Below, piece after piece: positions 2,032 to 57,708 of a DNA stretch of 64,000 nt. The first letter of the stretch is position 1, and each line of letters starts with the position of its first letter. The notes under the pieces were generated by a model. That model ran no database searches, was not told the DNA's origin, and saw only the letters and a list, made by a program, of their open reading frames with translations. Where the stretch lies: assembly GCF_058153355.1 (NCBI RefSeq), contig NZ_CM177019.1. One strand, given 5' to 3'. Position numbers and translations under genes: made by a program.

Positions 2032-3153
2032 ATGGTTGCTGAGTTGACCGCATTACGCGATCAAATTGATGAAGTCGATAAAGCGCTGCTGAATTTATTA
2101 GCGAAGCGTCTGGAACTGGTTGCTGAAGTTGGCGAGGTGAAAAGCCGCTTTGGACTGCCTATTTATGTTCCGGAGCGCGAGGCATCTATGTTGGCCTCGC
2201 GTCGTGCAGAGGCGGAAGCTCTGGGTGTACCGCCAGATCTGATTGAGGATGTTTTGCGTCGGGTGATGCGTGAATCTTACTCCAGTGAAAACGACAAAGG
2301 ATTTAAAACACTTTGTCCGTCACTGCGTCCGGTGGTTATCGTCGGCGGTGGCGGTCAGATGGGACGCCTGTTCGAGAAGATGCTGACGCTCTCGGGTTAT
2401 CAGGTGCGGATTCTGGAGCAACATGACTGGGATCGAGCGGCTGATATTGTTGCCGATGCCGGAATGGTGATTGTTAGTGTGCCCATCCACGTTACTGAGC
2501 AAGTTATCGGCAAATTACCGCCTTTACCGAAAGATTGTATTCTGGTTGATCTGGCATCAGTGAAAAATGGACCATTACAGGCCATGCTGGCGGCGCACGA
2601 TGGCCCGGTGCTGGGGTTACACCCGATGTTCGGCCCGGACAGCGGTAGCCTGGCAAAGCAAGTTGTGGTCTGGTGTGATGGACGTAAGCCCGAAGCATAC
2701 CAATGGTTTCTGGAGCAAATTCAGGTCTGGGGCGCTCGGTTGCATCGTATTAGCGCTGTCGAGCACGATCAGAATATGGCGTTTATTCAGGCTTTGCGCC
2801 ACTTTGCTACTTTTGCTTATGGGCTGCACCTGGCAGAAGAAAATGTTCAGCTTGAGCAACTACTGGCGCTCTCTTCGCCGATTTACCGCCTTGAGCTGGC
2901 GATGGTCGGGCGACTGTTTGCTCAGGATCCGCAGCTTTATGCCGACATTATTATGTCGTCAGAGCGTAATCTGGCGTTAATCAAACGTTACTATAAGCGT
3001 TTCGGCGAGGCGATTGAGTTGCTGGAGCAGGGCGATAAGCAGGCGTTTATTGACAGTTTCCGCAAGGTGGAGCACTGGTTCGGCGATTACGCACAGCGTT
3101 TTCAGAGTGAAAGCCGCGTGTTATTGCGTCAGGCGAATGACAGTCGCCAGTAA
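2032..3153 (+). CDS. tyrA: Chorismate mutase / prephenate dehydrogenase
   Basis: 373-aa ORF; GGGGQMG NAD-binding motif; directly downstream of aroF. Confidence 0.96.
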
Positions 3154-43393: not shown

Positions 43394-44797
43394 TTGAGAA
43401 TGCCGCGCACTGTAACACATAATCCGGATAGCCCCAATAATGACGATGTTTTAGCCGCATCTGAAAAATGGGACGCCTGTAAACCCCCCTATACCAGCGC
43501 ACACATGAAAATCTGTGTTGCTGCCGCCAAAATCATCCTCGCTGCTTCCGGCGTGGCTCGCCGTTCCAAATACGAAAAAGAGAACTATCTCCGTATCGAT
43601 TTCAGCAAAGCCGGTAAGGTTACATTTTACGCCGAGTTTCCAAAAAAGATGGGCCTCAAGGGTAAAAAGCTCGGCGAGTGGCCGGAGCTCGCTATCCAGC
43701 TGGCGCGCGAAAAAGCGCTAGGTATGGCTGACGGTGGCTTGCGGGCAGAGTCCGTACATGCAGCGCTGGAAATGTACCGGGATGACCTCAAAGCCAAAGT
43801 CGCCCGGCAGAAGCTGAGCCTGGACAGTTTCACAACCTACGGGGTGCGTATCGACCGGATTAAAGCAACGTTCGGCGAGCGTGAGGTGTTCAGCGACGTA
43901 ACATACAATCGGCTGGTGGAAGTGCTGGACGAGTGGATCGCCACTCGCTCGAACAATAACGCCCTGGAGTTGTTTGCCGAGCTCCGTCGGTTCTGGAAGT
44001 TCTGCGCACCTACTCTTTGCAACGGCCGCAATGTTGCCGCCAGTCTGCCAGATGATTATGTTTCCTCCCGCGTACAGAAACCCACCCCCACACGGCTTTT
44101 TACCGATATTGAATCAATCGCCCGACTCTGGCTCAATGTTGCTGCCTGCACCTCTGTACACCAGAAGAATGCTGTTCGCTTCATGATCATCACTGGTGTT
44201 CGTCCGATTAATGTCCATAACCTGCGCTGGGACTACGTTTACGAGGAGGCTGGTGAAATTGTTTATCCGGAAGGGGTTATCGGCATGCGAGGGGCTATGA
44301 AAACACAAAAGGCTTTCCGCCTGCCAATAACGCCGGAGATCCGGCGGATTATCGACGAGCAGAAAGCATGGCGTGATTCAGTTCCTGAGTGCAACAGGGA
44401 TTATGTATTTTTGCAGCCGCGTGATCCAATGCAGCCATTTTCAAAACGATCACTGGATAAGCTGGTGAAAACATACAGCCCGGACGGGGCTGTAAAAGGA
44501 ATAAAACATGATGGGACTGTTAAAGGGAAAGACGGTGCATTTAATACGATGTGCCGTAAATTCCTTAAGAGCAATGTTATTGCCTTGATGAAGGAAAGAG
44601 GCTATTCCCGATCAGACCGAAGGGAAATCAGCCTCCTTTGCCTTCACCACTCCAGCAAGTCAGATGACCCGATGGCAGAACATTACGACTTTTCTGATGA
44701 GATTTTACAGGAAGAGATTGCGTTAAAGCGCGAAGCTTTCGAGGCTCACGAGCGGAGCATACTTGCGCAGGTTGCATTGCTACGGCGGCGAGGTTAA
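43394..44797 (+). CDS. int: Phage integrase (probable tyrosine recombinase, divergent)
   Basis: 467-aa ORF at prophage edge beside AlpA-like gene; C-terminal region with conserved R, H and Y residues (..AEHYDF). Confidence 0.7.
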   Translation: MRMPRTVTHNPDSPNNDDVLAASEKWDACKPPYTSAHMKICVAAAKIILAASGVARRSKYEKENYLRIDFSKAGKVTFYAEFPKKMGLKGKKLGEWPELAIQLAREKALGMADGGLRAESVHAALEMYRDDLKAKVARQKLSLDSFTTYGVRIDRIKATFGEREVFSDVTYNRLVEVLDEWIATRSNNNALELFAELRRFWKFCAPTLCNGRNVAASLPDDYVSSRVQKPTPTRLFTDIESIARLWLNVAACTSVHQKNAVRFMIITGVRPINVHNLRWDYVYEEAGEIVYPEGVIGMRGAMKTQKAFRLPITPEIRRIIDEQKAWRDSVPECNRDYVFLQPRDPMQPFSKRSLDKLVKTYSPDGAVKGIKHDGTVKGKDGAFNTMCRKFLKSNVIALMKERGYSRSDRREISLLCLHHSSKSDDPMAEHYDFSDEILQEEIALKREAFEAHERSILAQVALLRRRG

Positions 44798-44994
44798 TAC
44801 TGGCTGCGACACTTTTGAATAAAAGCGTCGACATTTCGGCGCTCATAACGAACTACTTTTGCACTGAAACGAATTGGTGCCAGGATAGCCCGATGACGAT
44901 GCTTAATATTCCACTCACATAGCGTTTTCTGTGTAATACCTAACTTTTGGCATACTTCATCTGGGGTGAGTAAATCGTCGGGTTTCTCGCTCAT
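44794..44994 (-). CDS. AlpA/excisionase-type HTH DNA-binding protein
   Basis: 66-aa ORF LLTPDEVCQKLGITQKTLCEW typical of AlpA/Xis family; stop overlaps int stop. Confidence 0.75.
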   Translation of the reverse strand: MSEKPDDLLTPDEVCQKLGITQKTLCEWNIKHRHRAILAPIRFSAKVVRYERRNVDAFIQKCRSQY

Positions 44995-46385
44995 GCTATA
45001 CCTCTCTTTTTCATGGCATCGAGCAGGATGTCCTGCACTGTTCGTTTTGAGTTGCGCCGCTCCATCACCATTTCGTCCATAGTGTCGGCCGCAATAATGT
45101 GGTGAATAAATACCGGACGATTGTGTCCGGCCTGTATCTGCCTGGTGGGGCCGATACGTTCAATAATTTGCTGATACTGCTCCAGGTCCCACCAGTGTGA
45201 GAAAAATACTAGTATGTTTCCGCCGTCCTGCATGTTCAGACCGTGGCCCGCGCTGGCTGGGTGTGCAAAGAGAACAGGAATCTTTCCGGAATTCCAGTCG
45301 CGCAGTGTCTGTGGATCTTGGTCGAGGTGACGACCGCGAGGGAATGCTTTAAGCAAGCGTTCAAGATCGTGTTTCCAGTGATAAGCAACCAGCACAGGTG
45401 CGCCAGCTGCTTCGGTCAGTATGCTGTCCAGCGCCTGCAGTTTGGTGTCATGCAGTTCTGACCAACTTCCGGTGTCGTCTGTGTATACTGCGCCACTGGC
45501 GATTTGCAGACACTTCAGTGTCTTTGCCGCGGCGTTTGGTGCTTCGATGCCTTCGCCATTCAGCTCGAGGAACATTTCCTTTTCCATTTCACGATACTGC
45601 TGACGGGCCTTCGGCGGCATATCCACGCGGATTACGTTATGGATGGGGTCTTTGATATCGAACCAGTCGGCCGCATCCAGCGAGAGGGTCACATCGGCTA
45701 ATGCTCGCTGTATTTCAGCCTGTGAGTGAGCAAACGGCTCCAGTTTGGTCCAGCTCTGCCCTGGAAACTGTATCGAGTTGAACCAGCGTGAGGTAAACGC
45801 GCCGTAAGTGCGTCCGAGACGTTGCCCCTGGTCCACAAACCACGCTTGTCCCCACAAATCTACCAGGCCGTTCGGTGCTGGCGTCCCGGTGAGATTTATC
45901 CAGCGCCGGACATACTTATGCGCCACTTTGCCCAGCGCCGCCGCGCGCTTACCACCACCTCGCAGCCGGAAGGATTTTAGCCGGGTGCTTTCATCCGGAA
46001 TGACAGTACCGAACGGCCATCGTTCTCCCAATTCTTCAACCAGCCAGACAAGGTTATCGTAGTTGATGGTGAACACGCTTGCGTTGCTGTTCGCCAGCGC
46101 CGTAGAGCGCGCTTTGGCATTACCAACAATCGGCTGCACCTCGATATTGCGTAAATGCCCCCACTTCACTGCTTCATCCGGCCAGGTGTTTGCTGCAACA
46201 CGTAGCGGTGCGAGGACCAGTGCGGGGCGTGTTTCTGCCCCTGCCATAAAGAGATCTTCCAGCGCAGTGAGCGTTGCCACGGTTTTACCCATCCCCATAC
46301 CTGCCCAGATGTTGCCGCGCATGATGTCGATTTGGTGATTGATGATCAGGTCTTGATACGGGCGGGGGGTGAAAATTTGTCCCAT
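44991..46385 (-). CDS. SNF2/DEAD-like phage helicase
   Basis: 464-aa ORF with Walker A GMGMGKT and DEST motif II. Confidence 0.8.
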   Translation of the reverse strand: MGQIFTPRPYQDLIINHQIDIMRGNIWAGMGMGKTVATLTALEDLFMAGAETRPALVLAPLRVAANTWPDEAVKWGHLRNIEVQPIVGNAKARSTALANSNASVFTINYDNLVWLVEELGERWPFGTVIPDESTRLKSFRLRGGGKRAAALGKVAHKYVRRWINLTGTPAPNGLVDLWGQAWFVDQGQRLGRTYGAFTSRWFNSIQFPGQSWTKLEPFAHSQAEIQRALADVTLSLDAADWFDIKDPIHNVIRVDMPPKARQQYREMEKEMFLELNGEGIEAPNAAAKTLKCLQIASGAVYTDDTGSWSELHDTKLQALDSILTEAAGAPVLVAYHWKHDLERLLKAFPRGRHLDQDPQTLRDWNSGKIPVLFAHPASAGHGLNMQDGGNILVFFSHWWDLEQYQQIIERIGPTRQIQAGHNRPVFIHHIIAADTMDEMVMERRNSKRTVQDILLDAMKKRGIA

Positions 46386-46428
46386 AGTGTTTTAGCCAGT
46401 AGGGCGCGGGTAATCCCGCGCAATAATG

Positions 46429-47235
46429 TCAGATTAGATCGGTGTAGTAGGTGAAGTTGCCAAACTGCGGATGTGTCCAGCGCTTGCGGTTACCTTTCGG
46501 CGGTGTCGATTCGTTTAACAGCTTTTGAGCTGCTTGTTCGATCGCTGGGAGCTTAACGAGCAATCCCCGAACACCGGTGTCTGAACGTACCGGTATCTTG
46601 GCGAAGCCGATCAATTTCCGGCATGTTGAATCAGATAAACCTGTTTTCCATGCTGCTTTGCTGACGGGGACATATTCACCGTTACTGTGTGGTTGTGACT
46701 CTCTGACTTGTTGTTTTAAGTCTTCTACCCAGTTGGTTTCATGTCCCGGAGTTGAAAGCGTTACGTTTTGAACTTGCCGGGGAGCCATCACTTCGACAAT
46801 TGCTTTCATCGTGGCGGATGCCGTAGCTTCTGCAACGACACGGGCAAACTGAACGGTGTTGTCGTTTACCTGAATTGCAGGAGCTGGCACCGGTAATGAT
46901 GCCGGACGAGGTTGCTCTAATTCAATCTTCATCGCCTGCCACTGTTCGATGAGTGCCAGCCGGCGTTTTGCGTCGTAACCGGTGACGAGAGTCATGGAAA
47001 GATTTTCATCAAGCCAAATCTCGTCGATGACATCACGTCCCTTGTATTCTTTGCGCTTGATAATAAATCCTTTAAAATCATCATCATCCAAATCTGGACT
47101 ATAGATTTGTAACTGTTCAAGCATAGCCAGAATATCCCGTACAACATGCTTATGCTGTTTTCCAGTGACTTCTGCAATTTTCCGGCTGCCCATCATTGGT
47201 TGCTTGGTATCGTTTATCAGTGTTAAAGTATTCAT
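46429..47235 (-). CDS. Rha-family phage regulatory protein / antirepressor-like
   Basis: ORF 46429..47277 trimmed to MNTLTLINDT start with GGAGAA SD; SRKIAEVTGKQHKHVVRDI matches Rha N-terminal motif. Confidence 0.7.
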   Translation of the reverse strand: MNTLTLINDTKQPMMGSRKIAEVTGKQHKHVVRDILAMLEQLQIYSPDLDDDDFKGFIIKRKEYKGRDVIDEIWLDENLSMTLVTGYDAKRRLALIEQWQAMKIELEQPRPASLPVPAPAIQVNDNTVQFARVVAEATASATMKAIVEVMAPRQVQNVTLSTPGHETNWVEDLKQQVRESQPHSNGEYVPVSKAAWKTGLSDSTCRKLIGFAKIPVRSDTGVRGLLVKLPAIEQAAQKLLNESTPPKGNRKRWTHPQFGNFTYYTDLI

Positions 47236-47294
47236 GCTGTATTCTCCATTCAGTAAAAGATGCGCTGGTAGCTGCAACTATCAGCGCGTTTTGT

Positions 47295-47471
47295 TTATTC
47301 ATCCCACGGCTTGTTTGCAGCTTCCCTTGCGGCCTGCTGCGCAAAATAAATCAATTCAAAAGCTAACTGCTCTCCTTTTTCCAGCGAACTGAGAAGTCTT
47401 GCTGTTTCCAGCATGTCCGCGATATACCCGAAAATATCTGCCTGATGTAACTGCGTGATCTGAATAGCCAT
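47295..47471 (-). CDS. Hypothetical small protein (58 aa)
   Basis: Unlisted ORF MAIQITQLHQADIFGYIADMLETARLL... directly upstream of Rha gene, divergent from RHH gene. Confidence 0.35.
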   Translation of the reverse strand: MAIQITQLHQADIFGYIADMLETARLLSSLEKGEQLAFELIYFAQQAAREAANKPWDE

Positions 47472-47489
47472 AGCTTTAGCCTTGTTTTG

Positions 47490-47569
47490 TACTCATTGTG
47501 AGGACTTTATTTATTAGTACTCACAATGAGGCTTGAAGTCAACATGTTTGTGAGGCATGTTGTCCTCAC
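47490..47569. promoter_or_regulatory. Operator-like palindromes in divergent promoter region
   Basis: TACTCATTGTGAGGA (47490-47504) and its inverse TACTCACAATGAGGC (47518-47532), plus GTGAGG-N8-CCTCAC (47550-47569). Confidence 0.6.
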
Positions 47570-47587
47570 ACTTTCAAGGGATCATAT

Positions 47588-47917
47588 ATGAGCAAAAGAG
47601 ACGACCCGCAGTTGAGGGTACGCATACCAGAATTGCTAAAAGAGGCTTTGGAGAAGAAAGCACGGGCTAATAAGAGAACACTGACCTCTGAGATCGTTAG
47701 CCGGTTGGAATCTACTATTCTTCAGGACAAATTACTTCATACATCTAGGGGGTTTGAGGAAGCTGCTGATGAGATTCTCATACTCAGGGATCTTCTCGAG
47801 AAACTTAAAACAACGTACCATCGAGAGTATCAGGCCGAATGGGTTTATGAAAACAAATACGAGCTTATTGAAGCGATGGAAAAACTTAAGAAGTTGCTAA
47901 ATCCTGAGAATGAATAG
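47588..47917 (+). CDS. Arc/MetJ-type ribbon-helix-helix DNA-binding protein
   Basis: 109-aa ORF; N-terminal SKRDDPQLRVRIPELLKEALEKKARANKRTLTSEIVSRL is Arc-like RHH. Confidence 0.7.
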   Translation: MSKRDDPQLRVRIPELLKEALEKKARANKRTLTSEIVSRLESTILQDKLLHTSRGFEEAADEILILRDLLEKLKTTYHREYQAEWVYENKYELIEAMEKLKKLLNPENE

Positions 47918-48062
47918 TGGATTCATCCTCTAAACTTTTACGTAACCGCCGGGTGATTTCGGCGGTTAGTGTTCTGTCGTTTTCTCTGGAAATTTTTTCC
48001 AGTGCGTCTTTCAAGTCTTGCGGGATGCGTACCCGCAATTGTGGGTCATCACGTTTACTCAC
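47886..48062 (-). CDS. Second Arc-like RHH protein (paralog, GTG start)
   Basis: Unlisted 58-codon ORF VSKRDDPQLRVRIPQDLKDALEKISRENDRTLTAEITRRL; GGAGG SD; GTG overlaps VRR-NUC stop; 3' end antisense to 47588..47917. Confidence 0.5.
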   Translation of the reverse strand: MSKRDDPQLRVRIPQDLKDALEKISRENDRTLTAEITRRLRKSLEDESTIHSQDLATS

Positions 48063-48355
48063 AATATCCCCTCCAGATTTTTGCTATCTAATACCACCAC
48101 GCTAAAGCCCAGCTCGCGCAGCCGCTCGTGCTCGCGCAACTGGTCGGCGCGTGGTGCTTTGCCGGGTGCTTTGCATTCAACGAAAACAAGACGGCCGCCG
48201 GGTAGCAGAACAATGCGATCCGGTACCGAGCGGCGACCGGGAGATACGAACTTAAAGGCCACACCGCCAGCCTTTTTCACTTCAGCGACGAGGTGCTTTT
48301 CGATAAGGCTTTCACGTTCATAGGCCATCTGAATCCCACTCTTCAAAAAGCACAT
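48059..48355 (-). CDS. VRR-NUC domain nuclease
   Basis: 98-aa ORF with VAFKFVSPGRRSVPDRIVLLPGGRLVFVECKAPGK core typical of VRR-NUC. Confidence 0.75.
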   Translation of the reverse strand: MCFLKSGIQMAYERESLIEKHLVAEVKKAGGVAFKFVSPGRRSVPDRIVLLPGGRLVFVECKAPGKAPRADQLREHERLRELGFSVVVLDSKNLEGIL

Positions 48356-48617
48356 TCAATTCCAGTTTCTCTGCCAACGCGTTTTCTGCACGTGCGCCAG
48401 CAGAGTACTCCCACTCTTTGAGCATATAAATCGTATCGGCACAGCGAAGCATTGCGAGGCAGATGTCCATATACTGAGCCTGTGTCAAACCATTGGGTAA
48501 AGTTGCGGGGTTAAGCACAACATATCCCTTGTCCGTTAGCCTCTTTGCTGCGGAATGAAAAGCCGGGCGGTTAAATTGCTCGTAACCGCTCATCGGCCCG
48601 GCAACGTAAACGATCAT
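48318..48617 (-). CDS. DUF4406 / nucleoside 2-deoxyribosyltransferase-like protein
   Basis: 99-aa ORF MIVYVAGPMSGYEQFNRPAF..., resembling the deoxyribosyltransferase-like fold family. Confidence 0.55.
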   Translation of the reverse strand: MIVYVAGPMSGYEQFNRPAFHSAAKRLTDKGYVVLNPATLPNGLTQAQYMDICLAMLRCADTIYMLKEWEYSAGARAENALAEKLELNVLFEEWDSDGL

Positions 48618-48829
48618 TCTTCGACCGCCTTACGCTTTTCACGCATATTCTGCATCAGGCAAAAATCAGATCTGCGTTCACTCCATTCCTGATTCAGTTC
48701 GTGATGTGATTCGCGGTTGGCTTTTGCCCAGACCTTCGCTGCCCGGTCATATTCGCCGGATTGTTCAAGTCGCAAAGCCTCCCTTGCAGCCCTGTAATAA
48801 AGTGGATTGTCCCGGTATTTAAATGACAT
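48614..48829 (-). CDS. Hypothetical phage protein
   Basis: 71-aa ORF in operon between polymerase and DUF4406 gene; no recognisable motif. Confidence 0.4.
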   Translation of the reverse strand: MSFKYRDNPLYYRAAREALRLEQSGEYDRAAKVWAKANRESHHELNQEWSERRSDFCLMQNMREKRKAVEE

Positions 48830-48834
48830 AGGAG

Positions 48835-51762
48835 TTAATCCTTACGGTAGTGGTACGCCTCAAAACCGCCAGCGTTCAGTGGGATATCGGGCGCCCATTC
48901 GGGGTTAGTGGAGAGAAGCGCGGAAAGCGCTTTATCGTTGAAATCTTCTGTGTCAGGTGCTTCGGTGATCACCTCGTCGTGTACCGTCAGCACAATGCTG
49001 TAACCGGCATCTTCGATAAGCGGCATGTTTCCGGCCAGAACGTCGCGGGCGGCCGCCTGGGTGACGTTCTCTACCAGCTTTCCGCCGTAGGTTTTGAGTC
49101 GTTGCCATTTACGCGAATAAGAGTTAACACCCATGTAGGTGATATTCCCTTTTTCGATAACCGGAGACGGGTAGCATACAGCGCGTCCGGATGGTAGCTG
49201 TATGCGCAGCCACGCGCCATCGCGGCGGATTTTAAGATAACCGCAATACAATGTTTTTTGCGGTGTGGCGATTGCAGTGCGGATGGTGCGCTCCAGTTCG
49301 TACCAGAAATCGCAGGTCGCCGGGTGCGCCCTGCGCCAGAGACGTTTAAGTGAGTCGCAGGCGATAAATACCCGTTCAGAAAGGCCGTAGGTTGACTTAC
49401 GTTTAACCGATTCGTAGTACCAGCTTTTCGCCTCGCGGATAACATCGCGGGGAATGTTTGGCAGTGCGGCGTTCGCCAGCTCGTCGAGATCGAGACTGTA
49501 AACCAGTGCAAAAGTGATGAAGGCCGACACACCACCACCGTACCCGCAGTTGTGAACGATTAAATGTCCTGAGTCGGTTTTAATCGTGAATCTGTTTCGA
49601 GGCCCCGCATGTGCAATGTCGTAAACATCGCTCCAGCTCGTCGATACGTTTTTGCAGGTCTGCGATTTTTCTTCTGTTGCGGTTATTGTCTGCTTTGGAG
49701 ACGAACTGGATATTACCCGGTTCGTAGCCTTTGTTATTGTCGATGCGATCCATTTCCAACTTTGGGTCATTAAACCCTTTGATTTCCCTGACGTGTAGCA
49801 AAAAAGCTCTTTTATCTTCCTGCCATAGCTGACAAACGTAGATCCCCCGACCGCCGTAGTTGTGAAACAACCTGTTGGTGGGTTTATGGCAACGGCTGAT
49901 TGCGGCAGACAATCGGTTAAGTAGCCTGCGACGGGTTTCGTCATCTGCAATAGCATCCGCATAGCATAAGAATTTTTTACGATACTCGTTATGCTTTTTC
50001 TTTGCGCAAATGTTACATCGGGTACTTTTTCCTTTAAGGAGATTGCTGATTGTTGCGGTGTGAGGCATTGCACCACATTTGCATTTGACAAGTATCCTTC
50101 GGTCTTTTCCGGGTACTTTTTCCAGTTCTTTGATAACGGTAAGTTCTCCGAAGCAAGTTCCAGGCTTTGGTGAAGCGTATTTTTGTTTAAAGCGATAAGG
50201 TTTGCCAGCTTCCATCCAGTAGGGGTTAGCACCTGGTGATCCGGGGTCATTTTTGCTCCGTCCAGTGATATTAAGGCTTTGTACCCCCTGTAAATCAGTC
50301 CTTCGTGTTTTACCCATTCTTCTCCGTCCCATAACAAATCCGCGCCCGAAATACTAACAAGCGGCTTATAGCCTTTATCGGTGAGCACTAAAGTATCCGG
50401 AGCTATGCAAGCCAATTCCAGCACTTTACCTATCTGGCGCTGGTCTTTGGTGACGCGCTCAACTTCAATTCCGTAAGCTTTTGCATACGCCAGTTTATAT
50501 AAGTCCGGACCCGTTCCGGCGTCGTACTCTCTGAATGCATTCAGTTTCCATTCTTCTCCCGCCAGCCATGCCAGCATACGGCCTTCAATGTTCGACAAGT
50601 CACTTACCACCAGTTTTTTACCTGTTGGCGCGATAATGCAGCCACGTAACGCTGAACTGGTTAGTTCCATGATATTGTCAAACAGCAGGTCTGCACATCC
50701 GGCTTTCAGTGCTTCGATGCCTTCGTCTATTTGTTCCTGTTTTAGTGAAGGGCGGGGAAGATTCTGGGGCTGGAATAGCCGTCCGGCCCAGCGCCCGGTA
50801 CGTGACGCCCCGCAGAACTGTAGCGTACCGCGTAAGCGCCCGTCGTGGCTTACGCCTTTCATCAGTGCCTTGTATTTACTGGTGCTGGTAGTACTGGCTT
50901 GCTGGCGGATAGCCAGCAGTTCTTTCACGGCAGATGGTAAATCGGGGTCGGCTATACGACGTTCCAGGGTACTGCGTTGCATGTCTGGTAGCTCCACACC
51001 GTAGGATTCAACGATGTGCTTAATCAACGCGTCCCGTTGTGTGGCTGCCTGCACTTCGCCATCAGTCATTTCCTGTGTACGCTTTGCCAGGCGTTTTTGC
51101 TCCTGGTCTACCGCTTCGATCGCAGCGCGCGCGAGTTGAATGTCCATGCAGACGCCCCGGTCGTTGATCTGCTGATCACGATGCCAGAGCGCCAGTTCTG
51201 TCCCCTGATAATTCCACTTCGGCAGACGTTTATAGACTTCGCGCATTGCCTCGATATCCAGCCCGGCGTAAGCAACAAAGCGCCGCCATTCTTCCGGGTG
51301 GGTTTTACTGGTGGCCCGACGCAGTTTGCTGTTTTTCGGGCGTGGCTTACAGAACAGCTGGATCAGCGCTTTACCTTCTTTGTCCTTCGCTTTGTCTTGC
51401 GGGACGCCGAGTATTTCGCAGAGTTCCCCCAGAGACCCCGGGAGGCCGTGCGCCAGCGCCTGCACCATTGTGTCGCGCCAACGTTCGACTGGCGGTGCCA
51501 GTCGCGGCATTGCATAACGCAGGACGGTGCGGTCGAAGTGAGAGTTATGAAAATAAAGCAGGGTCTCAGGGGCTGCGATTGCTTCGTATAAGCCGTGTGG
51601 AATACCACCACCGGCAGTGATATCCCACACGTTTACGGGCCCGTCGTTGATAGCCCATGCGAACAGCATCACTTCAACGCCTTCGGCATACGCATGGGTA
51701 CCGTTCGTAATAGGGATTTCGCAATAGGTTTCCAGGTCGCCCCATAGAATGTTTTCAGACAA
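48835..51762 (-). CDS. Family-A DNA polymerase with 3'-5' exonuclease domain, interrupted by an in-frame intein
   Basis: 975-aa ORF; motif B reads [10 protein letters not shown][intein][10 protein letters not shown]; motif C VHDEV; N-terminal exonuclease domain. Confidence 0.85.
49549..50409 (-). other. Intein (287 codons) within polymerase motif B
   Basis: Starts [10 protein letters not shown], block [10 protein letters not shown], ends HLIVHN followed by Cys; central ~185 residues lack any endonuclease motif in frame. Confidence 0.75.
49580..50332 (-). CDS. HNH/His-Me finger-like endonuclease ORF in alternative frame inside the intein
   Basis: 250-codon ORF offset from polymerase frame; CKCG...CNIC zinc-finger pair and [27 protein letters not shown] resembling HNH motif. 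Confidence 0.45.
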
Positions 51763-57015: not shown

Positions 57016-57708
57016 TCAGAGCAGAACGGAGTACCAAAATACTTGGCCTATAATCCTGATTTTATTAGCCTCTTGATTAAAATACTCTTCGTCTGCGTAT
57101 TCATCCCTATTGAAAGAGCGTATCCGGAGTCCGCTTGGGAGACGGTACAATAGTTTGACACGAAGTAATCCGTCTTGGTCTATAGCGTACATTTGACCAT
57201 CTTTTACACCTGTTTTTGATGTATCTATGCCGACGACAGCGCCATCCGGTAATACCGGTTCCATGCTGTTGCCGTGGATGCTGACACAAGCCGCACAATT
57301 TACGTCAACACCTGCTTTGCGCAACGTTGAACGGGCGAATCTTAACTTACATCCCATTCGATCTATATCAACATAAGTACCATTACCGGCAGATAGTTCA
57401 ATTTCCTGATAGAACGGTATTTCCACTTCATCATCCTCTAATGGCGTTGATGAGTCCCATACAGAAAACCCCCCTTCAACTTGTGCATTAGAATGTATTT
57501 CTTTGGTATCGCTTGTTTTGCCTGAAAGTAGCCACTCTGGAGAAACGTTCAATGCTTCGGCCAGATTTATAAGATTTTTCCCGTTAGGTGTAGTGTTTCC
57601 GGATTCCCATTGTGAAATCGTGGCTTTAGTTAGACCAATACGTTTAGCAAGCGCATCCTGCGTTAGGTGGACATTGCGACGAGCCTCGCGAATACGATCA
57701 TTAATCAT
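57016..57708 (-). CDS. cI: CI-type phage repressor (HTH + S24 LexA-like peptidase)
   Basis: 230-aa ORF; N-terminal LTQDALAKRIGLTKATISQWESG HTH; C-terminal S24 autopeptidase-like domain. Confidence 0.85.
   Translation of the reverse strand: MINDRIREARRNVHLTQDALAKRIGLTKATISQWESGNTTPNGKNLINLAEALNVSPEWLLSGKTSDTKEIHSNAQVEGGFSVWDSSTPLEDDEVEIPFYQEIELSAGNGTYVDIDRMGCKLRFARSTLRKAGVDVNCAACVSIHGNSMEPVLPDGAVVGIDTSKTGVKDGQMYAIDQDGLLRVKLLYRLPSGLRIRSFNRDEYADEEYFNQEANKIRIIGQVFWYSVLL

What the first reader, a model, noticed from the sequence alone, without database searches (positions are those of the whole stretch)
47295..48062. Second regulatory locus: two paralogous Arc-like RHH genes converging and overlapping, with palindromic operators and an Rha/antirepressor-like gene
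A 109-aa RHH protein (47588..47917, +) and a 58-aa RHH paralog (47886..48062, -, GTG start coupled to the VRR-NUC gene) share the N-terminal SKRDDPQLRVRIP motif and are convergent, with about 30 nt of antisense overlap at their 3' ends. Upstream of the plus-strand gene lies a divergent promoter region with three operator-like inverted repeats (47490-47569), and on the other side a small ORF and an Rha-family gene. The arrangement resembles an immI-like (arc/ant) secondary immunity region, but with an unusual antisense-overlapping paralog pair.
Basis: partly seen in the sequence, partly recalled or inferred. Interest (0 to 1): 0.6.

Follow-up and report, generated by a model that had tools for sequence, protein, structure and literature searches.

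The report
Prophage Arc-pair switch guarding antirepressor-like gene
This is a real, swappable control cassette in an E. coli prophage: two related small DNA-binding proteins on opposite strands appear to share three operator sites next to an antirepressor-type gene, which makes it a rearranged cousin of phage P22's second immunity region rather than a new kind of system.

Summary
arcL (47588-47917, +, 109 aa) and arcS (47886-48062, -, 58 aa) are genuine Arc/Mnt-type ribbon-helix-helix genes. They are 60% identical, share the same first 14 residues, and converge with a 32-nt overlap. arcS overlaps the VRR-NUC stop codon (GTGA).

The window is E. coli chromosome carrying a prophage, and the locus lies at the far end of the prophage's early-left operon. 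Relatives show a cassette (operators, arcL, arcS) exchanged as a unit between conserved flanks. I found three specificity classes. In each class both proteins carry the same DNA-facing strand residues, and all three operators change together with them. The promoter and operator skeleton is conserved.

The regulated operon usually starts with a conserved 58-aa gene. It then carries an Ant-class gene whose type varies: Rha-N here, and Rha+ANT, Bro-N, KilA-N+ANT or KilA-N elsewhere. I also found a probable roughly 60-nt antisense RNA over the rha ribosome-binding site, placed exactly like P22 sar.

Best reading: an immI-like secondary control module in which arcL plays the Mnt role and arcS the Arc role. 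Unlike P22, the two share one specificity, arcS sits in the lytic operon, and the pair converges. DNA binding, transcription and antirepressor activity are all untested. Verdict: new variant of a known kind, moderate interest.

The parts
47588..47917 (+). arcL: 109-aa Mnt-like repressor, with an N-terminal ribbon-helix-helix domain and a long C-terminal helix
   Evidence: ORF. Pfam Arc PF03869, E 6e-9, residues 4-47. A profile of the long forms hits AmrZ, Arc and Mnt structures over residues 1-54. The AF2 model shows residues 53-104 as one helix with pLDDT 80-88. Annotated by PGAP.
47886..48062 (-). arcS: 58-aa Arc-like repressor and last gene of the early-left operon. Its GTG start overlaps the VRR-NUC stop (GTGA).
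   Evidence: dN/dS 0.07-0.33 against diverged alleles where dS was not saturated. Homologues carry precomputed PF03869. In 6 of 7 alleles the start overlaps the stop of the upstream gene by 4 nt, whichever gene that is.
47886..47917 (.). 32-nt overlap of the 3' ends of the convergent arcL and arcS genes
   Evidence: The overlap is present in every allele examined but its length varies: 4, 8, 9, 11, 23 or 32 nt.
47489..47505 (.). O1 operator, GTACTCATTGTGAGGAC, downstream of the predicted start of the leftward promoter
   Evidence: The equivalent palindrome sits at the same place in all alleles and changes with the specificity class.
47517..47533 (.). O2 operator, GTACTCACAATGAGGCT, in the spacer and -10 region of the leftward promoter
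47550..47569 (.). O3, degenerate in this allele: half-sites GTGAGG and CCTCAC flank and overlap the -10 of the arcL promoter
   Evidence: In other alleles O3 is a full palindrome (for example CTCACCGTGAG or CACCACCGTGGTG) abutting CATAAT.
47533..47542 (.). Back-to-back -35 hexamers TTGAAGTCAA: TTGAAG for rightward P(+) and TTGACT for leftward P(-)
   Evidence: TTGnnGTCAA is conserved in 9 of the 10 aligned alleles; the most distant, L060, has CTTGTCAAG. In allele 2 the scan tool calls TTGATG-17-CATAAT as a promoter, 9 of 12 matches.
47556..47561 (+). Predicted -10 of the arcL promoter P(+): CATGTT, 17-nt spacer, weaker than the CATAAT of other alleles
   Evidence: Read. The consensus scan does not call it in the window.
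47514..47519 (-). Predicted -10 of leftward promoter P(-): TACTAA on the minus strand, 17-nt spacer from TTGACT
   Evidence: Read. Inference only.
47295..47471 (-). hyp58: conserved 58-aa first gene of the regulated operon, function unknown, predicted helical hairpin
   Evidence: 20 homologues in E. coli, Shigella, Salmonella and Serratia, none with a Pfam domain. Alignment. AF2 predicts two helices. No informative PDB match.
47262..47299 (+). Conserved 10-bp hairpin (47262-47287) plus a T-tract on the + strand (47289-47299). It looks like an intrinsic terminator for a rightward transcript and may work in both directions.
   Evidence: Called by the terminator scan in the window, L076 and L034. 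97% of cells paired, 4 of 10 pairs with compensatory changes, 1 of 500 shuffles as good. Consensus fold.
47200..47229 (+). Putative promoter of an antisense RNA inside the first 12 codons of rha: -35 TTGCTT (47200-05), extended -10 TGtTAAAGT (47221-29)
   Evidence: Conserved in 9 diverged rha alleles. Codons under the hexamers are frozen (ACT 8/8, TTA 8/9, ACA 6/6, AAG 8/8, CAA 9/9), while conserved residues further downstream use mixed codons.
47236..47299 (+). Putative sar-like antisense RNA of about 60 nt that fills the hyp58-rha spacer and covers the rha Shine-Dalgarno (47242-47247) and start codon
   Evidence: Fold energy -23.5 kcal/mol, z = -4.65. Same geometry as P22 sar, which spans exactly the arc-ant spacer. 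No Rfam match, so it would be an analogue, not a homologue. Not shown to be transcribed.
46429..47235 (-). Rha-family cargo gene (268 aa): N-terminal Phage_pRha domain, C-terminal part unassigned
   Evidence: Pfam PF09669, E 4e-10, residues 15-103. The PHROG 'anti-repressor' hits cover the N-terminal domain only. No similarity to P22 Ant.
47943..47968 (+). Terminator-like hairpin downstream of the arcL stop, inside arcS
   Evidence: Only partly conserved: strong in L021, L031 and L033, broken in L032 and L034 by synonymous codon choice. Weak evidence.
48059..48328 (-). VRR-NUC nuclease gene, the upstream partner to which arcS is translationally coupled

Best explanation
The locus is an immI-like secondary control cassette of a temperate prophage. 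Its primary switch, cI/cro, lies about 10 kb away at 57.0-57.9 kb.

**Proposed mechanism**
- Two paralogous ribbon-helix-helix repressors read the same set of three operators, O1 to O3. The operators are laid over a pair of back-to-back promoters.
- Leftward P(-) drives hyp58, then the antirepressor-class gene rha, then SNF2 and a xis-like gene. O2 lies in its spacer and O1 just downstream of its start.
- Rightward P(+) drives arcL. O3 lies on its -10.
- arcL has an RHH domain plus a roughly 50-residue C-terminal helix, probably for oligomerisation as in Mnt. It would be the maintenance repressor made in the lysogen. It keeps P(-) shut and regulates itself.
- arcS has the RHH domain only, like Arc. 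It is made by translational coupling at the end of the CI-controlled early-left operon, so it appears only on infection or induction. It then occupies the same operators.
- Early-left transcription must run antisense through arcL into P(+), so the two repressors are likely expressed in mutually exclusive states.
- A short antisense RNA over the rha ribosome-binding site, and a hairpin after hyp58, would damp rha further.
- Exchange of the whole operator/arcL/arcS unit between specificity classes would give hetero-immunity at this locus.

**Shown here:** the genes, their homology, purifying selection, the operators, joint change of strand residues and operators, the conserved skeleton, the conserved hairpin, and frozen codons under the antisense promoter.

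**Inferred:** DNA binding, promoter activity, timing of expression, transcriptional interference, and the antirepressor activity of the cargo.
For: **Identity of the genes**
- RHH identity is supported.
- Both genes are real and constrained.

**Cassette swap with conserved flanks**
- Allele 1 and allele 2 sit between an identical hyp58 and a conserved VRR-NUC.

**Three specificity classes**
- Strand residues Q,R,R go with operators CTCAnnnTGAG.
- Q,K,R go with CCACnGTGG.
- P,G,R go with ACACGGTGT.
- In every cassette arcL and arcS share those residues, and only one palindrome type is present, in three copies.
- arcS is closer to its own arcL (42-68% identity over the RHH domain) than to arcS of other classes (34-42%).

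**Conserved skeleton**
- The order O1, -10, O2, TTGnnGTCAA, O3, CATAAT holds in 9 of the 10 aligned alleles; L060 has the same layout with CTTGTCAAG.
- P(+) is called by the scan tool in allele 2.

**Match to P22 geometry**
- O2 sits where Oarc sits, inside the Pant spacer.
- O1 sits where Omnt sits, just after the -10.
- Allele-2 operators share the CCACGGTGG core with Omnt.

**Cargo is always Ant-class**
- Rha-N in the window.
- Rha-N + ANT in L032 and L034.
- A Bro-N-type protein in L031 that hits the PHROG that best matches P22 Ant.
- KilA-N + ANT in Serratia.
- KilA-N in the distant L060.

**Other points**
- arcS is always the last gene of the upstream operon and is usually stop/start coupled, whether the preceding gene is VRR-NUC, SNF2 or an exonuclease.
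- P22 immI functions are taken from PMC11016777 and PMC2629481.
Against: - No experimental data exist. No transcripts, binding or phenotypes are available for this cassette, and no isolated phage in the INPHARED collection carries it.
- The consensus scan finds no promoter in the window allele. Its P(+) -10 is poor (CATGTT) and its O3 is degenerate.
- The window's Rha protein has no detectable similarity to P22 Ant, and its C-terminal domain is unassigned. Antirepressor activity has been shown for few Rha proteins, if any.
- CI has an S24-like C-terminal region, so SOS induction needs no antirepressor.
- Shared strand residues do not prove shared specificity. P22 Arc and Mnt differ at only one of the three facing positions yet bind different operators.
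- Because arcS resembles its own arcL, shared residues could reflect recent duplication or gene conversion rather than selection.
- The overlap length, the tail sequences and the hairpin inside arcS are not conserved.
Confidence: 0.6

Rival explanations
1. The convergent overlap is only genome compaction. The two repressors work purely as proteins, and antisense transcription or polymerase collision has no regulatory role.
For: The overlap varies from 4 to 32 nt and the overlapping tails are not conserved. The terminator-like hairpin inside arcS is broken in L032 and L034 by synonymous changes. Short 3' overlaps are common in phage genomes (general knowledge).
Against: The convergent, abutting topology with no intergenic terminator is kept in every allele. 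This includes the distant L060 and cases where the gene upstream of arcS differs. Early-left transcripts must cross arcL and P(+) to reach hyp58, rha, SNF2 and xis.
Confidence: 0.35
2. arcS antagonises arcL rather than acting as a second repressor. It forms heterodimers that lack the C-terminal helix, or it competes as a weakly binding dimer. Either way it breaks cooperative repression and opens P(-) during lytic growth.
For: The two share the same dimer-forming fold at 60% identity. arcS lacks the C-terminal helix. arcS is made only from the lytic operon. arcS co-evolves with its own arcL.
Against: The P22 precedent is that the short protein, Arc, is a repressor (PMC11016777). A pure titrating antagonist would not need to keep the DNA-reading residues, yet they are conserved in all three classes. 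Nothing was tested directly.
Confidence: 0.15
3. The cassette mainly gates transcription into the distal early-left genes (xis-like HTH, SNF2). In this reading it controls excision or acts as an insulator, and does not control an antirepressor.
For: A xis-like HTH gene and the integrase follow the cargo in the window, L057, L103 and L104. The HTH protein shows a weak excisionase-domain hit. The cassette always lies at the distal end of the early-left operon.
Against: The gene class kept next to the operators is Ant-like, not xis. L105 has a PyocinActivator-family gene there instead, and L060 has SSB downstream with no integrase nearby. SNF2 lies upstream of the cassette in several alleles.
Confidence: 0.15
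4. The RHH genes belong to a toxin-antitoxin, partition or anti-phage defence module.
For: RHH proteins are common antitoxins and ParG-type partition proteins. The top PHROG hits are labelled 'partition protein ATPase'.
Against: There is no co-directional toxin and no ParA neighbour. There were no meaningful PADLOC hits. The locus is chromosomal, in an integrated prophage. The PHROG label does not fit a 58-109 aa RHH protein.
Confidence: 0.02

Closest known systems
Salmonella phage P22 immI region (mnt, Pmnt/Pant, arc, sar, ant)
   Same: - Both are a second regulatory region separate from the cI/cro-type switch.
- Both have a long RHH repressor with a C-terminal extension (Mnt, arcL) transcribed away from an operon that carries an Ant-class gene.
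- Both have a short RHH paralogue (Arc, arcS).
- Operators sit inside the spacer of the ant-operon promoter and just after its -10.
- A small first gene is followed by a roughly 60-nt spacer.
- In P22 an antisense RNA spans that spacer. Here one is predicted: it would start inside the cargo gene and end at a hairpin beside the first gene's stop.
- Both are embedded in a longer operon whose read-through crosses the region.
- The allele-2 operator core CCACGGTGG equals the Omnt core.
- Basis: PMC2629481; PMC11016777.
   Different: - The short repressor is not the first gene of the ant operon. It is the last gene of the upstream lytic operon and converges on arcL with overlapping 3' ends.
- The first gene of the regulated operon is instead an unrelated 58-aa helical protein.
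- Both repressors appear to read one operator type present in three copies, not two operators with two specificities.
- The promoters are back-to-back at their -35 hexamers rather than fully overlapping.
- The cargo here is Rha-N, with no similarity to P22 Ant.
- The antisense element has no sequence or structure homology to sar.
- The region lies in the early-left operon next to xis and int, not in the late operon before the tailspike gene.
Arc / Mnt / AmrZ family of ribbon-helix-helix DNA-binding proteins (Pfam PF03869)
   Same: - The domain match is significant.
- The pattern of an N-terminal arm, a strand ending in R-x-P, and two helices aligns with Arc, Mnt and AmrZ.
- arcL has a helical C-terminal extension, as Mnt does.
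   Different: - The C-terminal helix of arcL has no detectable sequence similarity to the Mnt tetramerisation domain. The PDB profile hit to 1mnt covers residues 3-48 only.
- The oligomeric state is unknown.
Phage P1/P7 immI (c4 antisense RNA, icd, ant) and LexA-controlled antirepressor modules (Gifsy phages, N15 antC, 186 tum). These are recalled from my own knowledge and were not tested here.
   Same: A secondary locus controls an antirepressor-type gene, with RNA-level or extra transcriptional control layered on a primary repressor.
   Different: - Here control is by a pair of RHH proteins.
- No LexA box lies in the cassette.
- No c4-like RNA family was found.

Membership tests
Arc/MetJ-type ribbon-helix-helix repressors (Pfam Arc PF03869) | Significant match to the Arc domain profile | tested here: met
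   arcL matches at E 6.2e-9 over residues 4-47. Both proteins hit Arc-like PHROGs. arcS homologues carry precomputed PF03869. A profile of the long forms hits AmrZ (5e-11), Mnt (3e-7) and Arc (5e-6) structures.
Arc/MetJ-type ribbon-helix-helix repressors (Pfam Arc PF03869) | Dimer with an antiparallel two-stranded sheet that reads the major groove of a palindromic operator | not testable with these tools
   The monomer AF2 model shows helices only, as expected for a fold that forms on dimerisation. Palindromic operators are present. Binding was not tested.
P22-type immI secondary immunity region | Two paralogous RHH repressors, one long and one short | tested here: met
P22-type immI secondary immunity region | Long repressor transcribed away from the ant operon, with operators over the ant-operon promoter | tested here: met
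   Operator and promoter layout is conserved in 10 aligned alleles and compared with P22. Promoters are predicted, not mapped.
P22-type immI secondary immunity region | Short repressor (arc) is the first gene of the ant operon | tested here: not met
   The first gene is hyp58. arcS lies on the other side of arcL, at the end of the upstream operon.
P22-type immI secondary immunity region | The two repressors have different operators (Oarc, Omnt) | tested here: not met
   Each allele has only one palindrome type, in three copies, and both proteins share the strand residues. This was judged in silico only.
P22-type immI secondary immunity region | Cargo is homologous to P22 Ant | tested here: not met
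   The window's Rha protein against P22 Ant gives no similarity, E 8.8, and they share no PHROG. Other alleles carry ANT, Bro-N or KilA-N domains, and L031's cargo shares phrog_245 with P22 Ant.
P22-type immI secondary immunity region | sar antisense RNA across the spacer upstream of ant | tested here: inconclusive
   Rfam sar does not match the window. A non-homologous element with the same geometry is predicted, based on a conserved promoter, frozen codons and a covarying terminator hairpin. Transcription is not shown.
P22-type immI secondary immunity region | Cargo protein inactivates the primary repressor; the long repressor confers immunity | not testable with these tools
   This needs genetics or biochemistry.
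Type II toxin-antitoxin module with an RHH antitoxin | Co-directional adjacent toxin gene in one operon | tested here: not met
   The neighbours are VRR-NUC, hyp58 and Rha. arcL stands alone on its strand. There were no meaningful PADLOC hits.
ParG/ParA-type partition system | Adjacent ParA ATPase and centromere repeats on a plasmid or plasmid-prophage | tested here: not met
   There is no ATPase neighbour. All 121 places found in E. coli genomes are chromosomal and none is on a plasmid.

The most novel reading that the evidence does not exclude
The cassette could be a hand-over switch. Two paralogous repressors with the same DNA specificity are wired to opposite transcription states. arcS is made only when the CI-controlled lytic operon fires, and that same transcription runs head-on into the arcL gene and promoter and silences it. 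arcL is made only when that operon is off. Operator occupancy would then pass between a dimer-only form and an oligomerising form without ever being released. A convergently evolved, non-homologous sar-like antisense RNA would add a third layer over the antirepressor-class gene. Exchangeable specificity classes would set up a second, independent immunity system among these prophages.
Probability: 0.3. Interest if true: 0.6.

Novelty: new variant of a known kind. Interest (0 to 1): 0.45.

Why it matters
P22 immI is the textbook second immunity region and the source of the Arc and Mnt model proteins.

This cassette shows the same logic rebuilt with different wiring. It has one operator specificity shared by a long and a short paralogue. 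The short one has moved into the lytic operon and converges on the long one. An unrelated small gene takes arc's place. A probable antisense RNA has the same geometry as sar but no homology to it.

The cassette offers natural sets of matched repressor pairs and operators in three specificity classes, useful for studying how RHH proteins recognise DNA. It is also a test case for transcriptional interference between convergent regulator genes.

In practice it marks an unstudied prophage lineage in Shiga-toxin-producing (STEC, including O121) and other E. coli, Salmonella and Serratia. Its induction and cross-talk with other prophages may depend on this locus.

Tried and rejected
- **Isolated phages.** Megablast of the locus against isolated phages found nothing. 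tblastn of hyp58 and of allele-2 arcL against phages also found nothing. tblastn of arcL gave only distant (33-51%) Arc/Mnt-like hits. No characterised phage carries the cassette.
- **Known RNA families.** An Rfam scan of 44500-49000 at E <= 1 gave only a spurious lncRNA hit, so no known sar- or c4-type RNA is present.
- **SOS control.** A LexA-box search found no site in the cassette. Direct SOS control is rejected.
- **Defence systems.** The PADLOC scan gave no defence-system match.
- **Terminator inside arcS.** I tested the hairpin at 47943-47968 as a conserved arcL terminator. It is strong in some alleles but broken in L032 and L034, and it partly results from the codons for the TAEITRR motif. 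I kept it only as weak evidence.
- **First stem of the antisense RNA.** A 5' stem-loop in the putative antisense RNA, like the first hairpin of sar, is not conserved. Only the terminator hairpin and the single-stranded anti-Shine-Dalgarno stretch are.
- **Fold searches.** Searches with the hyp58 and arcL models returned nothing useful.
- **Strand of the hyp58-rha hairpin.** Counting G-U against A-C pairs gave 3 versus 4 mismatched cells, so this cannot be decided. The strand assignment rests on the T-tract and the promoter.
- **Literature.** Searches for the protein accessions and for a similar arrangement found nothing specific.
Full report
**Context**

The window is E. coli chromosome (rpoE, lepA, rnc, acpS, yfhL side) followed by a prophage that starts with an integrase at 43394-44797 (+). 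The 2-kb region around the finding is 97.9% identical to chromosomal prophages in seven complete E. coli genomes and matches 120 genomes in part. The annotated copy in strain 2014C-3061 shows the layout. A cI-like XRE repressor and cro sit about 10 kb to the right (window 57016-57708). A long leftward early operon runs DUF2800, DUF2815, DNA polymerase, ANR, DUF4406, VRR-NUC, then the finding, then Rha, SNF2 and a xis-like HTH, ending next to the integrase. The finding is therefore a second regulatory locus at the far end of the early-left operon.

**Observation**

All elements are present as described.
- arcL is 47588-47917 (+, 109 aa). arcS is 47886-48062 (-, 58 aa, GTG). They overlap by 32 nt.
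- The arcS start overlaps the VRR-NUC stop as GTGA.
- The proteins are 60% identical over 52 residues, with identical first 14 residues.
- arcL matches Pfam Arc at 6e-9. Both hit the same Arc-like PHROGs. A profile of the long forms finds AmrZ, Mnt and Arc structures.
- Rha is confirmed by Pfam at 4e-10, N-terminal domain only.
- The 116-nt spacer holds the reported inverted repeats.
- CTCAnnnTGAG occurs twice there and once elsewhere in 64 kb, against 0.71 expected.
- Both genes are annotated by PGAP.
- arcS shows pS far above pN against diverged alleles, with dN/dS 0.07-0.33 in the pairs where dS was not saturated. arcL has saturated synonymous sites with pN 0.2-0.4. Neither is a chance ORF.

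**The locus is an exchangeable specificity cassette**

Other E. coli prophages have the same flanks, an identical hyp58 on the left and VRR-NUC on the right. Between them sits a different block: arcL of 114 aa, arcS of 45 aa, only 4 nt of overlap, and different palindromes.

Searching viral contigs with hyp58 and with an RHH alignment, and looking up hyp58 homologues in assemblies, gave further alleles from E. coli, Salmonella, Serratia and an unrelated AT-rich phage.

Three classes emerge, defined by the three DNA-facing positions before the conserved proline:
- Q,R,R with operators CTCAnnnTGAG
- Q,K,R with CCACnGTGG
- P,G,R with ACACGGTGT

In every cassette arcL and arcS share these residues, and the spacer holds three copies of a single palindrome type. 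Over the RHH domain, arcS is closer to its own arcL (42-68%) than to arcS of other classes (34-42%). The pair therefore evolves in concert. I read this as both proteins binding the same operators. It is an inference, and P22 Arc and Mnt warn that small differences can change specificity.

**Conserved regulatory skeleton**

I anchored the spacers on the motif TTGnnGTCAA, which is present in 9 of the 10 aligned alleles; the distant L060 has CTTGTCAAG. All ten then show the same order: O1, an A/T-rich stretch with a -10-like TAC(T/A)nn on the minus strand, O2, the back-to-back -35 hexamers, then O3 abutting CATAAT.
- The leftward promoter P(-) has a consensus or near-consensus -35 (TTGACA; TTGACT in the window). 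O2 lies in its spacer and O1 just after its start.
- The rightward promoter P(+) has a weak -35 and a good -10, with O3 on top. The scan tool calls it in allele 2.
- In the window allele O3 has decayed to two inverted half-sites (47550-47569) and the -10 is CATGTT. The scan tool finds no promoter there.

The record for P22 immI shows Oarc inside the Pant spacer and Omnt just after its -10. These are the positions of O2 and O1. The allele-2 operators share the CCACGGTGG core of Omnt.

**The cargo**

The first gene after the operators is almost always hyp58. It is a 58-aa protein found only in Enterobacterales, with no Pfam domain and a predicted helical hairpin.

The next gene varies, but it always belongs to the domain-shuffled antirepressor class:
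- Rha-N plus an unassigned C-terminus in the window
- Rha-N plus ANT in L032 and L034
- a Bro-N-type protein in L031 that hits the PHROG that best matches P22 Ant
- KilA-N plus ANT in Serratia
- KilA-N in L060, which lacks hyp58

The window's Rha itself shows no similarity to P22 Ant. arcS is always the last gene of the upstream operon and usually overlaps its stop, whether that gene is VRR-NUC, SNF2 or an exonuclease.

**A sar-like element**

The 59-nt hyp58-rha spacer contains a 10-bp hairpin.
- The hairpin is conserved with compensatory changes: 97% of cells paired, 4 of 10 pairs changed on both sides, 1 of 500 shuffles as good (consensus fold).
- The conserved T-tract lies on the + strand. 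The scan tool calls a + strand terminator there in three alleles.
- Upstream on the + strand, inside the first codons of rha, TTGCTT-18-TGnTAAAGT is conserved in nine rha alleles.
- The codons beneath these hexamers are frozen (ACT 8/8, TTA 8/9, ACA 6/6, AAG 8/8, CAA 9/9). Conserved residues further into the gene use mixed synonymous codons.

The predicted roughly 60-nt RNA starts next to the rha ATG, carries a single-stranded anti-Shine-Dalgarno stretch, and ends at the hairpin beside the hyp58 stop (z = -4.65). P22 sar occupies exactly the arc-ant spacer in the same way. Rfam finds no sar homologue here, so this would be an analogue. The hairpin could also act as a partial terminator for P(-) transcripts. 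Pairing counts do not identify the strand.

**Mechanism proposed**

- arcL is the Mnt analogue. It has an RHH domain plus a roughly 50-residue helix and would be made from P(+) in the lysogen. It would repress P(-) at O1 and O2 and regulate itself at O3. Because the two -35 hexamers overlap, closing P(-) may also favour P(+).
- arcS is the Arc analogue. It would be made only when the CI-controlled early-left operon is on, and would bind the same operators.
- That operon's transcripts must cross arcL in antisense and run into P(+), which probably makes the two repressors mutually exclusive.
- rha would be damped further by the antisense RNA and the hairpin.
- Cassette exchange between classes suggests selection for distinct immunity specificities.

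None of the binding, transcription or antirepressor steps has been shown.

**Rivals**

- The overlap may be incidental. Its length varies (4-32 nt), the tails are not conserved, and the hairpin inside arcS is not conserved.
- arcS may antagonise arcL through heterodimers.
- The cassette may chiefly gate xis.
- Toxin-antitoxin, partition and defence readings are rejected: there is no toxin or ParA neighbour, all copies are chromosomal, and PADLOC gave nothing meaningful.
- There is no LexA box.

**Novelty**

The cassette is rare. Allele 1 is in 12 and allele 2 in 6 of 5426 complete E. coli genomes. It is absent from isolated phages in the collection searched. I found no paper on it.

It works like P22 immI but fails several membership features:
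- arc is not in the ant operon.
- There is one operator specificity, not two.
- The cargo is not homologous to Ant.
- The genomic position differs.
- There is no sar homologue.

I classify it as a new variant of a known kind, of moderate interest.

Noticed in passing
window 47200-47299 (+): Probable sar-like antisense RNA over the rha ribosome-binding site. It has a conserved promoter inside rha codons 1-14 with frozen synonymous codons, a covarying terminator hairpin, and the same geometry as P22 sar, but no homology to it.
   Followed up: yes
window 48835-51762 (-), inner ORF 49580-50332 (-): The DNA polymerase ORF is 975 aa here against 687 aa in a close relative (L001). The insertion has intein-like ends (CIAPDT... 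to ...LIVHN followed by C). An HNH endonuclease ORF (PHROG 374, E 5e-37) lies inside it in a different reading frame, and both frames are open.
   Followed up: partly
L006 (E. coli LH50-c) 2523-3076: A decayed copy of the cassette: arcL is a pseudogene, O1 is deleted and hyp58 is extended at its N-terminus, while arcS is intact. A TIR-domain gene and a BRO-N gene lie nearby.
   Followed up: partly
window 47506-47513 and L002/L009-L014: A 4-bp indel (TTTA) between O1 and the -10 of the leftward promoter among otherwise near-identical allele-1 copies. The O1-O2 spacing is therefore 28 or 24 bp and helical phasing is not kept.
   Followed up: no
L037-L052, L054, L056, L062 and others (viral contigs): Many other phage loci carry a short and a long RHH gene in divergent (P22 mnt/arc-like) rather than convergent arrangement. 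The convergent form was seen in the hyp58-associated lineage and in L060.
   Followed up: no
L033, L057, L061, L103-L105: In Salmonella and some E. coli relatives, SNF2 lies upstream of arcS rather than downstream of rha. The cassette, not its neighbours, is the conserved unit. In L105 a PyocinActivator-family gene follows rha.
   Followed up: partly
window 57016-57708 (-): The primary repressor is an XRE-type HTH protein with a C-terminal region that weakly matches an S24-peptidase regulator model. This suggests RecA-dependent self-cleavage, so an antirepressor would not be needed for SOS induction.
   Followed up: no
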